A stretch of 64,000 nt of DNA from a phage: sequence record PZ452584.1, one strand, 5' to 3'. This document shows, in pieces, positions 59,413 to 63,665 of the stretch. Each line of letters starts with the position of its first letter. The stretch's first letter is position 1. The notes under the pieces were generated by a model, which worked only from the letters and a program-made list of their open reading frames with translations, searched no databases and was not told the origin of the DNA. The translations under genes and the position numbers were made by a program.

Positions 59413-59775
59413 TTAAAAGAATTTAAACTTTTTCTTTGACCTTTTATTAAATGCATCTTGTAGTTGCATTGTAATACATTTTTCTACATGAGGAGCTAAC
59501 TCAGCTTTTCTTTCTTGGTCAAGAACAGCAAAGTCCATTACAACCTTTCCATTAACCCAATCTAATTTTGTCACATACACAATGTGTGTAGAACCATCTT
59601 CTAGTTTAATGACAATCTCCTGGATAACATTTTCCATAGCGGATTTAATTATCTTAAGAGACTCATTAAAAAGACGTTCTTTTCTTTCTTCTTCCCCCTC
59701 CGAAGAGGGGGATTCATCGATAATTTCTAGATCTAAATCTAAATCATCTTTATTCATTAAATTCTTCCATATCAC
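59413..59775 (-). CDS. 40: gp40 head vertex assembly chaperone
   Basis: 120-aa ORF between uvsX and 41 as in T4; assignment by position and size. Confidence 0.65.
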   Translation of the reverse strand: MIWKNLMNKDDLDLDLEIIDESPSSEGEEERKERLFNESLKIIKSAMENVIQEIVIKLEDGSTHIVYVTKLDWVNGKVVMDFAVLDQERKAELAPHVEKCITMQLQDAFNKRSKKKFKFF

Positions 59776-60931
59776 TTAGCTGATCTAGGTCAGTTTCTAA
59801 ATCAGCCGCTGATTTACTTTTACTTTCTGGAGATTTAAATTTTTCAACTTTTGAGTTAATTAATTCATCAACTTCCGCTTCAACAATTTCATTACTATCA
59901 ATAGCACCTAACTGATAAGCACGTTTAATAGCATCTCGGAATGGTTGATGCTTAAATAAAGGACCCCAGAATGTAGTGCAGTTAGTATCTTTTGCACGCC
60001 AAGATTTTTCTTCGCGAATCATCTCGCCGGTTTCTTCGTCAAGAAATTCACGAGCATACCAACCATTCTTAGGTTTTACAACAAATCCTAATTCTAGAGC
60101 CATATCTAACAATCCAGAATAAGGATCGATACCACCGTCAAATTTAACATCAATAAAGAATTTACTTTTTTCTTTAACGGTACGAGATTTTTCTACATTT
60201 AGAACAAATTGATACCCCTGAAGATCAGAACCATCTTTAATCTGACGTTTACCGATAATGAATACAGTATCAGCCGAATACATTACGCCTGTACCACCTG
60301 TCATCACGGTTTTACTAAACATTTCAATTGTTTCAATTGTATGGTTAACCGCAACACATGGAATATTTTTAATGCTAAAGTAAGGAGTAACAATACGGAA
60401 TAATGACTTCAGTGATTTAGCACGAGTCATATCTGCCACAGATTTTTCATTCAAGGCATCTTCCGTTTCTTTCTTAGAAGCCATATTACCGATTGAGTCG
60501 ATGAATACAATAACTTTTTCACCGCGCTCAATAGCTTCAAGCTGATTCACCATATCAATTTTCAGCTGTTCAACTGACTGGATTGGCGTATGAATTACTC
60601 GTTCCGGGTCAACTCCCATGGATCGCAAATAAGCTGGAGTAATACCAAATTCACTATCATAGAATAGACAAACCGCGTCAGGATATTTGTTTAAATATGC
60701 CGCAACCATAGTCAAAGACATATTTGATTTAAAGTGTTTAGAAGGACCTGCAAAAATGGTTAAACCAGACTGCATACCGCCATCAATCGCACCAGAAATA
60801 GCGATATTAAGCATTGGGATTTTTGTACGGATTACATCCTTTTCATTAAAGAATTTAGATGTAGTCAGTTCAGCAGTCATTTTAGAAGTGGAAGCTTTAA
60901 TCAAACGGGATTTTAAATCTGCAATAGACAT
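59750..60931 (-). CDS. uvsX: UvsX recombinase (RecA-like)
   Basis: 393-aa ORF MSIADLKSRLIKASTSKMTAELTTSKFFNEKDVIRTKIPMLNIAISG...; close to T4 UvsX with substitutions. Confidence 0.93.
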   Translation of the reverse strand: MSIADLKSRLIKASTSKMTAELTTSKFFNEKDVIRTKIPMLNIAISGAIDGGMQSGLTIFAGPSKHFKSNMSLTMVAAYLNKYPDAVCLFYDSEFGITPAYLRSMGVDPERVIHTPIQSVEQLKIDMVNQLEAIERGEKVIVFIDSIGNMASKKETEDALNEKSVADMTRAKSLKSLFRIVTPYFSIKNIPCVAVNHTIETIEMFSKTVMTGGTGVMYSADTVFIIGKRQIKDGSDLQGYQFVLNVEKSRTVKEKSKFFIDVKFDGGIDPYSGLLDMALELGFVVKPKNGWYAREFLDEETGEMIREEKSWRAKDTNCTTFWGPLFKHQPFRDAIKRAYQLGAIDSNEIVEAEVDELINSKVEKFKSPESKSKSAADLETDLDQLSDMEEFNE

Positions 60932-61008
60932 TCATTTTTTCCATAGGCATCATTATATTTTCCTCACTGGTTAAAGATAGAGTAATTATAACACAATAAA
61001 TTTAGGCA

Positions 61009-61851
61009 TTAATCAACTGCTATTGGATGAATAGCATTAAACTTATGAAATGCTTCTGATTTTTCTTTACGCGAAACACACATGCGAAGAACCTTTAATG
61101 GCTCGTCTTCTTCACCCAACGATTTTCGTTTTTCAATATTAGAAGTTTTCCAACGAGCTTGCTCTGGAAACTCTCTATTGATTTGCTCAAGCGCTCTATT
61201 ATGTTTAGAATTACTACGAATTGAACTACACCCACCAGGAGCTTGTGCTTTTCCAGATACAACCAGATATTTGAACAAGGCCAAATGCGGATAACCTTGA
61301 TTAATTAAATTGAGAAATGCATACATATCTTCGCACAAATCAATTTTTCCATACCCAATTTGTTCTGTCGTAAGTTTTCCAAGGTCATACCATGTATTCG
61401 TGAATCCATATGAATTTTCACGATAATTACCCCAAGATGAAGTAATTTTAAAAATTGGTAGGCGAGCATGACCGTGATAATACCCGCAATCCATGGCATC
61501 TTCGACGTATTGAATCAATTCATAGAACTGTTCATGAGTCAATTGATTGACTTTATCCACGCAACGACGGTCATCTCTTTTTCGCATTGAACTCATACGA
61601 ATAGTAGTATCATCGTCAATCATCCAGATTCGTTGGCCTGCATACATATCAGTAATTGCTTTACGAGTACCGGCAATTCCGTTTACATCATCAGGAATAG
61701 TTATAATTTTAGCTCTAGACCCATAGGCATCATAATAAGCTTTTTCTTCATGTTCACGCACTACAATATGGGGTTCATAATCAGTCGGAAACATATCAAG
61801 GGCAGAAACTGCCCCGACACGCTGATAACTTGGAATTACGAATTGAATCAT
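61009..61851 (-). CDS. DxD glycosyltransferase at the beta-gt locus (possible beta-alpha glucosyl-HMC glucosyltransferase)
   Basis: 280 aa from ATG 61851 (ATGA overlap with gene 42 stop); WMIDDDTT DxD motif; too short for T4 beta-gt (351 aa). Confidence 0.45.
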   Translation of the reverse strand: MIQFVIPSYQRVGAVSALDMFPTDYEPHIVVREHEEKAYYDAYGSRAKIITIPDDVNGIAGTRKAITDMYAGQRIWMIDDDTTIRMSSMRKRDDRRCVDKVNQLTHEQFYELIQYVEDAMDCGYYHGHARLPIFKITSSWGNYRENSYGFTNTWYDLGKLTTEQIGYGKIDLCEDMYAFLNLINQGYPHLALFKYLVVSGKAQAPGGCSSIRSNSKHNRALEQINREFPEQARWKTSNIEKRKSLGEEDEPLKVLRMCVSRKEKSEAFHKFNAIHPIAVD

Positions 61852-62588
61852 TTCCACTCACCTTTATAGTCTTTTTTCACAATATGAGTTTCGCCAGTAT
61901 TCCACCAATGATCAACCAAGTAAAAATGACGAGAATATACATGAAGACTTCCAACATTCCATATAATAGAACCTGCTTTATACTGACGAGTTGAATCGCC
62001 GACATTCAAATCAGATACTAATTTATCTAATACGTATTTTTGCCATGCATAATCATTACGGAATCCGAAGACCACGTCATTTGAGCGCATGCTTACTACT
62101 GCATTGACTTTCTTATCACGAATCAGGTACTGTACTGTATTAGTACACATGAAATCTGACATACCATCTTTATTGTAGTCAAATTGCATGGATGGACGAG
62201 TATAAATCATGATACCACGTCGAGAATCAGGATTTTGACCAAGTTCAGCTAAACACATATCATACTGGGCATAGTTATCTTCTGACCAAATAGCCCAACC
62301 ATAATTCGAGTTAATTTCGCCTTTAGAAGATGCTACCTGCTGCCAAATCTTTGGTGTTTCGCCTGGAATATCTTTAACAAACAAGCTCTTAGATTTATAC
62401 CATTCAAGTTCACGCTGAATGTATTCATCATTAAGAGCGCCAAAAATAAACGGTTCATCTGCTACAAATGATGCGCCAATAATTTCAATAGTTTTAACAC
62501 CAGTTTTATCAACTACGAAATCTTTTTCTTTTAATGCAAGCCCCAAATGAAGACGGATTTCTTCAACTGTCATAGAGTCACTAATCAT
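61848..62588 (-). CDS. 42: gp42 dCMP hydroxymethylase
   Basis: 246-aa ORF MISDSMTVEEIRLHLGLALKEKDFVVDKTG...; same length as T4 gp42. Confidence 0.93.
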   Translation of the reverse strand: MISDSMTVEEIRLHLGLALKEKDFVVDKTGVKTIEIIGASFVADEPFIFGALNDEYIQRELEWYKSKSLFVKDIPGETPKIWQQVASSKGEINSNYGWAIWSEDNYAQYDMCLAELGQNPDSRRGIMIYTRPSMQFDYNKDGMSDFMCTNTVQYLIRDKKVNAVVSMRSNDVVFGFRNDYAWQKYVLDKLVSDLNVGDSTRQYKAGSIIWNVGSLHVYSRHFYLVDHWWNTGETHIVKKDYKGEWK

Positions 62589-62741
62589 TTAAACCTCAAT
62601 TGATACATTCATATTTAAATTGTAACAGTAATAAACCCCAACCTAAAATAATAGTTGGAATCATAAGAGGAACCGTTACACTATAGTATATACTTATTAT
62701 AATCATCAAGATTAAAAGCAACACTGTTATAATTTTGCTTT

Positions 62742-62993
62742 TCATTCCTTCTCTCTGATGATAATTACCTGATTTGGCTGTGCAGACTTTTTAGTTTCAC
62801 CCGCAATTGACCAAATAAATGTAATAAACCAACCAATAATTGACCAGTTAAACAGTAAAGATGTGAAAAAGATTCCTACTGTCGATTTTGACCCACGCAT
62901 CAAGGCGATAAACCATGGAAGCATGTATATAATAATAGCCAACACACCTGAAACTAAAACCATAAAAATTGAACCTGCTACTAAAGTTTCCAT
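62742..62993 (-). CDS. imm: Imm immunity (superinfection exclusion) membrane protein
   Basis: 83-aa ORF with two TM segments METLVAGSIFMVLVSGVLAIIIYMLPWF...; T4 position between 43 and 42. Confidence 0.85.
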   Translation of the reverse strand: METLVAGSIFMVLVSGVLAIIIYMLPWFIALMRGSKSTVGIFFTSLLFNWSIIGWFITFIWSIAGETKKSAQPNQVIIIREKE

Positions 62994-63381: not shown

Positions 63382-63391
63382 AATAATTTCC

Positions 63392-63628
63392 TCAAATGCA
63401 AGTAGTAATTACTCCAGTAGTGCTTATGCAGGTATTACCCATTTGCACACCTAAAGATCCATTTGTATTCACATGAAGATTATCATCAATTTTAACTGAT
63501 ATTTTACCATTAGTGTGAATAACGGTGCTAGATTCAATCACAGGTTGAGTATCATTTTCAACACTAACAAATGGAACTGCTGCTAATGCAACTAAACAAA
63601 CTGCTAAGCATCCCATAACAATTTTCAT
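63392..63628 (-). CDS. putative secreted protein (78 aa)
   Basis: Trimmed to ATG 63628 with GGAGAA RBS in promoter-leader cassette; MKIVMGCLAVCLVALAAVPFV signal peptide. Confidence 0.5.
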   Translation of the reverse strand: MKIVMGCLAVCLVALAAVPFVSVENDTQPVIESSTVIHTNGKISVKIDDNLHVNTNGSLGVQMGNTCISTTGVITTCI

Positions 63629-63665
63629 TTTATTCTCCAAATCTGTATCAGTAGTTGATAGTTGT

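What the first reader, a model, noticed from the sequence alone, without database searches (positions are those of the whole stretch)
61009..61851. Short DxD glycosyltransferase where T4 has beta-glucosyltransferase
The 280-aa ORF carries WMIDDDTT, a DxD motif typical of GT-A fold enzymes, which is a different fold from T4 beta-gt. It is translationally coupled to gene 42 (ATGA), the enzyme that makes hydroxymethyl-dCMP. This fits a T2/T6-type beta-alpha glucosyltransferase that adds a second glucose (gentiobiosyl-HMC), which would alter sensitivity to modification-dependent restriction.
Basis: partly seen in the sequence, partly recalled or inferred. Interest (0 to 1): 0.45.

Follow-up and report, generated by a model that had tools for sequence, protein, structure and literature searches.

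The report
Known T2/T6 second-glucose DNA glucosyltransferase

Summary
The ORF is real. It runs 61851 to 61009 on the minus strand and encodes 280 aa. Its ATG overlaps the stop of gene 42 (dCMP hydroxymethylase) as ATGA. It lies between gene 42 and uvsX, where T4 has segA plus beta-gt.

The protein is about 99% identical to the beta-glucosyl-HMC-alpha-glucosyltransferases (ba-gt, also called g-gt or TAGT) of T2 and T6. It matches PHROG 842 at 6e-89 and Pfam PF20691 above threshold. About 475 phage records carry it at this position. It has no similarity to T4 beta-gt.

Published work supports the function:
- A T6 ba-gt deletion leaves only alpha-glucosyl-hmC and raises sensitivity to the Brig1 glycosylase.
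- Phage NR1, whose enzyme differs from this one by 2 residues, carries about two-thirds gentiobiosyl-hmC by LC-MS.

The alpha-gt gene that makes the acceptor lies outside the window.

In passing: T2 has a private R11H change at a family-invariant arginine, and both deposited T6 genomes carry private lesions in this gene.

The parts
61009..61851 (-). ba-gt (g-gt / TAGT) coding sequence, 280 aa plus stop: beta-glucosyl-HMC-alpha-glucosyltransferase
   Evidence: ORF. PHROG 842 at 6e-89. Pfam PF20691 at 39.1 bits against a cut-off of 27.5. About 99% identity to T2 and T6 proteins. 475 phage records cover at least 80% of the 1001-nt query, annotated with this name where named.
61848..61851 (-). ATGA overlap: start codon of ba-gt (61851-61849) overlaps stop codon of gene 42 (61850-61848)
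   Evidence: Read from the sequence. The same 4-nt overlap is annotated in T2, NR1, NBEco003 and RB32. Coupling is inferred, not shown.
61857..61864 (-). Shine-Dalgarno-like AAGGTGAG inside the end of gene 42, 5 nt before the ATG
   Evidence: Read from the sequence. Inference only.
61609..61617 (-). Codons for D79-D80-D81, the DxD metal/nucleotide-sugar binding motif within WMIDDDTT (61603-61626)
   Evidence: Invariant in 48/48 homologues. Directly follows strand E74-78 of the GT-A model.
61819..61821 (-). Codon for R11 (CGT) in the N-terminal IPSYQR motif, after the first beta-strand
   Evidence: Invariant in 48/48 homologues. Replaced by His only in T2 records.
61327..61332 (-). Codons for E174-D175 (CED), candidate catalytic-base motif of an inverting GT2-like enzyme
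   Evidence: D175 is conserved in 42/48 homologues. The role is inferred by analogy with the acidic 'ED' motif of GT2-like GT-A enzymes (own knowledge) and was not tested.
60920..61865 (.). 946-bp segment with no DNA homology to T4. It replaces T4's 1,941-bp segA + beta-gt segment.
   Evidence: blastn of window against T4: homology stops at 60919 (start of uvsX) and resumes at 61866 (last codons of gene 42). T4 annotation.
61848..62588 (-). Gene 42, dCMP hydroxymethylase (makes the hm-dCMP precursor)
   Evidence: PF00303 thymidylate synthase family. Annotated as dCMP hydroxymethylase in matching records. 96% DNA identity to T4 gene 42.
59750..60931 (-). uvsX, RecA-like recombinase (downstream neighbour)
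   Evidence: PF21134 T4_UVSX_C and PF00154 RecA.

Best explanation
The ORF encodes the T2/T6-type beta-glucosyl-HMC-alpha-glucosyltransferase (ba-gt, g-gt, Pfam TAGT) of a Tequatrovirus phage.

The pathway runs as follows. Gene 42, immediately upstream, makes hydroxymethyl-dCMP, which is incorporated into DNA. An alpha-glucosyltransferase encoded about 11-12 kb away, outside this window, puts alpha-glucose on hmC. This enzyme then uses UDP-glucose to add a second glucose in beta-1,6 linkage to that alpha-glucose, giving gentiobiosyl-hmC.

The enzyme is a small GT-A fold enzyme. The invariant D79-D80-D81 presumably holds the divalent metal and UDP-glucose diphosphate. The N-terminal IPSYQR motif and R63 presumably contact the nucleotide. 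An acidic residue, with E174/D175 as candidates, presumably acts as the base in an inverting transfer.

What is shown: the gene identity, the fold, the conservation and the position are shown here. The chemistry and the effect on defence are shown in the literature for near-identical proteins. The residue roles, the translational coupling to gene 42 and the fraction of hmC that is diglucosylated in this particular phage are inferred.

This allele keeps R11 and is 2 residues from NR1's enzyme. I therefore expect a T6/NR1-like high gentiobiosyl content rather than T2's ~5%.
For: - The ORF and the ATGA junction are present.
- PHROG 842 'beta-glucosyl-HMC-alpha-glucosyltransferase' matches at 6e-89 over residues 1-275. 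Pfam PF20691 TAGT matches above its gathering score.
- The protein differs from T2 by 3 residues, from T6 by 2 residues plus a lesion, and from NR1 by 2 residues.
- A megablast search with a 1,001-nt query found 568 phage records. In 475 of them the match covers at least 80% of the query, and the listed records annotate uvsX and gene 42 at its two ends.
- R11, R63, D79, D80 and D81 are invariant in 48/48 homologues.
- Literature: T6 delta-ba-gt carries only alpha-glucosyl-hmC and is more Brig1-sensitive (PMC11078745). T6 delta-g-gt DNA becomes a BapA substrate (PMC13160076). Durham Tequatroviruses with alpha-GT plus TAGT, including NR1, carry gentiobiosyl-hmC by HPLC/MS (PMC13390438). T6 TAGT has a GT-A fold, sister to GT2 (PMC13216743).
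- The T2 and T6 genes were cloned by Winkler and Ruger, NAR 1993 (reference seen).
- The best-matching record over window 40000-64000 (NBEco003) and T6 both encode alpha-gt 11-12 kb beyond gene 42.
Against: - Nothing in the sequence argues against the assignment.
- The alpha-gt gene that supplies the acceptor is not in the window (tblastn negative), so the full pathway is not verified for this genome.
- No solved structure or direct enzymology exists for this exact protein (no PDB relative by sequence).
- T2 and T6 enzymes are about 98% identical yet give ~5% and ~72% gentiobiosyl-hmC, so the extent of diglucosylation cannot be read from gene presence.
- The promoter and terminator scans are at chance level, so expression signals are not established here.
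Confidence: 0.93

Rival explanations
1. Same enzyme, but weakly active as in T2. Virion DNA would be mostly alpha-monoglucosyl-hmC with only a few percent gentiobiosyl-hmC, so the gene would have little effect on defence sensitivity.
For: T2 carries a 99%-identical gene yet has only ~5% gentiobiosyl-hmC according to the literature. Three Durham phages with the gene show an intermediate 1:2:2 profile. The extent may depend on factors outside the gene.
Against: The window allele has R11. T2 alone has H11, at a residue invariant in 48/48 homologues. NR1, with ~two-thirds gentiobiosyl-hmC, differs from the window protein only by D24N and H106R, both at variable positions.
Confidence: 0.12
2. A TAGT-family enzyme with a different specificity in this phage, for example another sugar donor, or acting directly on hmC or on beta-glucosyl-hmC.
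For: The TAGT family is diverse. Some members co-occur with beta-GT or with no other GT, so specificities vary across the family (PMC13216743).
Against: The protein is 99% identical to the genetically characterised T6 enzyme and to enzymes of phages with measured gentiobiosyl-hmC. It sits in the same genomic slot.
Confidence: 0.03
3. A shortened or diverged orthologue of T4 beta-glucosyltransferase (GT-B fold) that puts a single beta-glucose on hmC.
For: It occupies the same position between gene 42 and uvsX. Several GenBank records label it 'b-gt' or 'putative beta-glucosyltransferase'.
Against: There is no sequence similarity to T4 beta-gt (best BLASTP E 0.28 over 10 residues) and no PF09198 hit. 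The fold is GT-A, not GT-B. DNA homology with T4 stops exactly at the borders of the gene.
Confidence: 0.01

Closest known systems
Beta-glucosyl-HMC-alpha-glucosyltransferase of phages T2 and T6 (ba-gt / g-gt / ggt; Winkler and Ruger 1993; Pfam PF20691 TAGT; PHROG 842)
   Same: Same length (280 aa) and same slot between gene 42 and uvsX with the ATGA overlap. 277/280 residues are identical to T2. The window protein differs from T6 by 2 substitutions. All family-invariant residues are present.
   Different: It differs only in a few substitutions at variable positions. Unlike T2, it keeps the invariant R11. Unlike the two deposited T6 sequences, it has neither the codon-10 amber nor the one-codon deletion in DDD.
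T4 beta-glucosyltransferase (b-gt, GT63, GT-B fold, PF09198)
   Same: It uses the same genomic position, presumably the same UDP-glucose donor, the same DNA substrate class, and forms a beta linkage.
   Different: The sequence is unrelated and the fold differs (GT-A against GT-B). The acceptor is the 6-OH of alpha-glucose already on hmC rather than the hydroxymethyl group. T4 also has the segA homing endonuclease in the swapped segment.
GT2-type inverting GT-A glycosyltransferases (e.g. TarS, TarP, RmlT, SpsA)
   Different: Structural alignments give only 8-16% identity. There is no Pfam GT2 hit. The acceptor is modified DNA. The protein is much smaller than most relatives, with a C-terminal extension of its own.
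TET/JBP-associated glycosyltransferases of other phages and the arabinosyltransferases of RB69-like Mosigvirus
   Same: They have the same general role, adding a sugar to a modified cytosine in DNA. TET-associated members share the PF20691 family.
   Different: Those enzymes act on other base or sugar combinations and share only 13-50% identity. Membership of the RB69 enzymes in PF20691 was not tested here.

Membership tests
T2/T6 beta-glucosyl-HMC-alpha-glucosyltransferase (PF20691 TAGT, PHROG 842) | Sequence match to the family profiles above curated threshold, over the full length | tested here: met
   PF20691 at 39.1 bits (cut-off 27.5), residues 3-207 on profile 2-205/205. PHROG 842 at 6e-89, residues 1-275 on profile 4-269/270.
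T2/T6 beta-glucosyl-HMC-alpha-glucosyltransferase (PF20691 TAGT, PHROG 842) | Near-identity to the enzymes of T2 and T6 that define the activity | tested here: met
   3 substitutions against T2 (two independent records). 2 substitutions against T6.
T2/T6 beta-glucosyl-HMC-alpha-glucosyltransferase (PF20691 TAGT, PHROG 842) | GT-A fold with a DxD motif after the fourth strand | tested here: met
T2/T6 beta-glucosyl-HMC-alpha-glucosyltransferase (PF20691 TAGT, PHROG 842) | Location between gene 42 and uvsX in a Tequatrovirus genome that lacks b-gt | tested here: met
   The flanking genes are identified. The same arrangement is seen in T2, T6, NR1, NBEco003 and RB32. No b-gt was found in the window. 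The rest of the genome is not available.
T2/T6 beta-glucosyl-HMC-alpha-glucosyltransferase (PF20691 TAGT, PHROG 842) | Co-occurrence with alpha-glucosyltransferase, which makes the acceptor | not testable with these tools
   alpha-gt is absent from the 64-kb window, as expected. It lies 11-12 kb beyond gene 42 in T6 and NBEco003, past the window end.
T2/T6 beta-glucosyl-HMC-alpha-glucosyltransferase (PF20691 TAGT, PHROG 842) | Transfers glucose from UDP-glucose in beta-1,6 linkage to alpha-glucosyl-hmC in DNA | not testable with these tools
   Literature only: the T6 deletion phenotypes and HPLC/MS of phages carrying near-identical genes.
T4 beta-glucosyltransferase (PF09198, GT-B) | Sequence similarity to T4 b-gt / PF09198 | tested here: not met
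   BLASTP best E 0.28 over 10 residues. The Pfam scan of the ORF gives only PF20691, whereas T4 b-gt gives PF09198 at 9e-98.
T4 beta-glucosyltransferase (PF09198, GT-B) | GT-B two-domain fold | tested here: not met

The most novel reading that the evidence does not exclude
The gene itself is known. The most novel reading left open concerns what sets the extent of diglucosylation. T2's enzyme carries a private R11H change at an arginine that is invariant in 48/48 family members, next to the first strand where GT-A enzymes bind the nucleotide. This could be the unexplained cause of T2's ~5% against T6's ~72% gentiobiosyl-hmC. Under that reading the window's R11 allele predicts a T6-like, heavily diglucosylated genome, and residue 11 becomes a one-residue predictor of sensitivity to alpha-glucosyl-hmC-specific defences such as Brig1 and BapA.
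Probability: 0.3. Interest if true: 0.35.

Novelty: already known. Interest (0 to 1): 0.08.

Why it matters
It matters only as correct annotation. A phage with this gene is expected to carry gentiobiosyl-hmC rather than T4's mixture of alpha- and beta-monoglucosyl-hmC. That changes which host defences can attack it: Brig1 and BapA act on alpha-glucosyl-hmC but not on gentiobiosyl-hmC, while GmrSD-type enzymes still cut. It also affects how the DNA behaves with restriction enzymes and in sequencing. None of this is new. The gene was cloned in 1993, is annotated in hundreds of genomes, and has been knocked out in T6.

Tried and rejected
- Single-sequence AlphaFold2 gave an unusable model (pLDDT 39). 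It was replaced by a run with 48 homologues.
- A sequence search of the PDB found no relative (best E 1.5), so the fold had to be tested by structure comparison.
- The T4 beta-gt orthologue reading was tested and rejected.
- The GTG at 61857, which would give a 282-aa product, was considered as the start. It was rejected in favour of the ATG at 61851, which the T2, NR1, NBEco003 and RB32 annotations use and which has the SD-like AAGGTGAG 5 nt upstream.
- Promoter and terminator consensus scans around the gene were at chance level and add nothing.
- The viral-contig scan returned only 5 loci, too few for a population survey of residue 11. Short megablast queries were used instead.
- The Winkler and Ruger 1993 paper is not held in the library and is cited only through another paper's reference list.

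Full report
**Observation**

The ORF list shows a minus-strand ORF at 61009..61857 (282 aa from a GTG). An ATG two codons in, at 61851, gives a 280-aa product beginning MIQFVIPSYQR.

On the minus strand the junction reads GGT GAG TGG AAA TGA TTC. The ATG of this ORF (61851-61849) therefore overlaps the TGA of the upstream ORF (61850-61848) as ATGA. An AAGGTGAG lies 5 nt before the ATG.

The upstream ORF (61848..62588) belongs to the thymidylate synthase family and is annotated as dCMP hydroxymethylase, gene 42, in the matching phage records. The downstream ORF (59750..60931) is UvsX.

WMIDDDTT is residues 76-83. By itself a DxD means little: 72% of shuffles of this protein contain one.

**Identity**

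- The protein hits PHROG 842, 'beta-glucosyl-HMC-alpha-glucosyltransferase', at 6e-89 over its whole length.
- It hits Pfam PF20691, TET-associated glycosyltransferase (TAGT), at 39.1 bits against a cut-off of 27.5.
- A 1-kb DNA query across the gene finds 568 phage records. In 475 of them the match covers at least 80% of the query. They are nearly all Tequatrovirus phages of Escherichia, Shigella, Yersinia, Citrobacter and Salmonella. Where the gene is named, it is called beta-glucosyl-HMC-alpha-glucosyltransferase or glucosyl transferase, and it is flanked by uvsX and gene 42.
- Against two independent T2 records the protein differs at 3 positions: R11H, H106R and P251S. Against T6 it differs at 2 (Y40N, D55G). 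Against phage NR1 it differs at 2 (D24N, H106R).
- Window 40000-64000 is about 96% identical to many Tequatroviruses and matches none of them closely, so the window is an ordinary mosaic member of that genus.

**Relation to T4**

T4 has uvsX, segA, b-gt and 42 at this place. DNA homology between the window and T4 runs to window 60919, at the start of uvsX. It resumes at 61866, in the last codons of gene 42. A 946-bp segment here therefore replaces a 1,941-bp segment (segA plus b-gt) in T4.

The protein has no similarity to T4 beta-gt (best BLASTP E 0.28 over 10 residues). T4 beta-gt belongs to a different Pfam family, PF09198.

**Fold**

No PDB chain is related by sequence, and a single-sequence AlphaFold2 run failed (pLDDT 39).

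Two rounds of homologue search gave 51 relatives, almost all carrying PF20691. I aligned 47 of them with the window protein. Their identity to it ranges from 77% down to 13%. R11, R63, D79, D80 and D81 are invariant, and I6, P7, R32, Y39, T62 and R212 nearly so.

With this alignment the model reaches pLDDT 93.4 and pTM 0.91. It has alternating strands and helices, and the DDD directly follows strand 74-78.

- B4GALNT1, GnT-I and GalNAc-T1;
- GT2-type enzymes such as RmlT, TarS, TarP, cellulose synthase and chondroitin polymerase;
- lower down, SpsA, A197 and sugar nucleotidyltransferases.

No GT-B enzyme appears in the list. This agrees with a 2026 paper that modelled the T6 protein and placed TAGT as a sister group of GT2 within the GT-A superfamily (PMC13216743).

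**Function, from the literature**

- T2 and T6 lack beta-gt. They carry this enzyme, which adds a second glucose, beta-1,6-linked, to alpha-glucosyl-hmC, giving gentiobiosyl-hmC at about 5% of cytosines in T2 and 72% in T6.
- Deleting the gene in T6 leaves only alpha-glucosyl-hmC. The DNA then becomes degradable by the Brig1 glycosylase, and the phage becomes more sensitive to Brig1 (PMC11078745).
- T6 delta-g-gt DNA, unlike wild-type T6 DNA, releases glucose on treatment with BapA (PMC13160076).
- HPLC/MS of ten newly isolated Tequatroviruses that encode alpha-GT plus TAGT and no beta-GT found hmC, alpha-glucosyl-hmC and gentiobiosyl-hmC, but no beta-glucosyl-hmC. Seven of them, including NR1, had about two-thirds gentiobiosyl-hmC (PMC13390438).
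- The T2 and T6 genes were cloned and sequenced in 1993 (Winkler and Ruger, reference seen; the paper itself is not held).

**Mechanism**

These points are shown:
- the gene identity, the fold, the invariant residues, the position, and the overlap with gene 42;
- the chemistry and its consequences for defence, for near-identical proteins, in the cited papers.

These points are inferred:
- D79-D81 bind the metal and the UDP-glucose diphosphate, as in other GT-A enzymes.
- R11 in the IPSYQR motif and R63 contact the nucleotide.
- E174/D175 (D175 conserved in 42/48) supply the catalytic base of an inverting transfer.
- Translation is coupled to gene 42.
- This phage is heavily diglucosylated.

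The last inference rests on the intact invariant residues and on the 2-residue distance from NR1. The acceptor-making alpha-gt is not in the window. In T6 and in NBEco003, the best-matching record over window 40000-64000, it lies 11-12 kb beyond gene 42, which is past the window end.

**Verdict**

The feature is an already known, widely annotated gene. Interest is low.

**Seen in passing**

1. All T2 records, plus SV76 (same record length as T2 AP018813), carry CAT (His) at codon 11. They are the only 8 of 446 records identical to T2 over the first 80 nt. The nearest alleles examined (RB32, EC.W14-2) differ there by exactly that one base and have CGT (Arg). R11 is invariant in 48/48 homologues. 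This is a candidate, untested, for T2's low gentiobiosyl content.

2. The two independent T6 genome records each carry a private lesion in this gene.
   - MH550421 has CAG to TAG at codon 10 and is annotated from Met20 as 261 aa.
   - AP018814, and its RefSeq copy NC_054907 (protein YP_010067197.1), lacks one GAT of the GAT-GAT-GAT that encodes the DDD motif in T6. That RefSeq protein is the one used as the TAGT query in PMC13216743.
   - Whether these lesions are stock mutations or sequence errors is unknown.

3. A 49-aa hydrophobic ORF between imm and gene 42 (62596-62745, minus) is intact in T4 but not annotated in the T4 RefSeq record.

4. An 82-aa signal-peptide-like ORF (63392-63640, minus) sits in a segment absent from T4, between imm.1 and gene 43.

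Noticed in passing
L003:4283-5125 and L005:4286-5128 (T2 ba-gt), codon 11; corresponds to window 61819-61821: T2's enzyme has R11H (CGT to CAT) at a residue invariant in 48/48 TAGT homologues. Only T2 records and SV76 (same record length as T2 AP018813) are identical over this stretch (8 of 446 records). The nearest alleles, RB32 and EC.W14-2, have Arg. This is a possible cause of T2's ~5% against T6's ~72% gentiobiosyl-hmC. The window has Arg.
   Followed up: partly
L001:7951-7953 (T6 MH550421, codon 10 of ba-gt): This T6 record has an amber codon (CAG to TAG) at codon 10 of ba-gt. The gene is annotated as a 261-aa product from Met20, which would lack the first strand and R11. The lesion is private to this record among 445 matches.
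   Followed up: partly
L002:4135-4974 and L015:135-974 (T6 AP018814 / RefSeq NC_054907, YP_010067197.1): The other T6 record lacks one GAT of the GATGATGAT that encodes the invariant DDD, giving WMIDDTT and 279 aa. The lesion is private to this record and its RefSeq copy among 474 matches. This RefSeq protein was used as the TAGT reference query in a 2026 paper.
   Followed up: partly
window 62596-62745 (-): A 49-aa very hydrophobic ORF (MKSKIITVLLLILMIIISIYY...) lies between imm and gene 42, and its ATG overlaps the imm stop. It is intact in T4 (45/49 residues identical) but not annotated in the T4 RefSeq table. RB32 annotates a gene 42.1 at the corresponding position just upstream of gene 42, and NBEco003 a 150-nt hypothetical protein.
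   Followed up: partly
window 63382-63614, ORF 63392-63640 (-): This segment is absent from T4, between imm.1 and gene 43. It carries an 82-aa ORF with a signal-peptide-like N-terminus. T2 and NBEco003 annotate a hypothetical protein at the same place.
   Followed up: no
window 60932-61008 (-): The 77-nt spacer between ba-gt and uvsX contains TGCCTAAA, then 11 nt, then TATAAT on the minus strand. This looks like a T4 middle (MotA-type) promoter for uvsX. I recognised it by eye from memory of the consensus, and the sigma-70 scan did not list it.
   Followed up: no
window 59413-59775 (-) against T4/T6 gene 40: The mechanical ORF for gene 40 starts at a GTG and is 120 aa. T4 and T6 annotate 345 nt (114 aa). 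This is probably only a start-codon choice.
   Followed up: no
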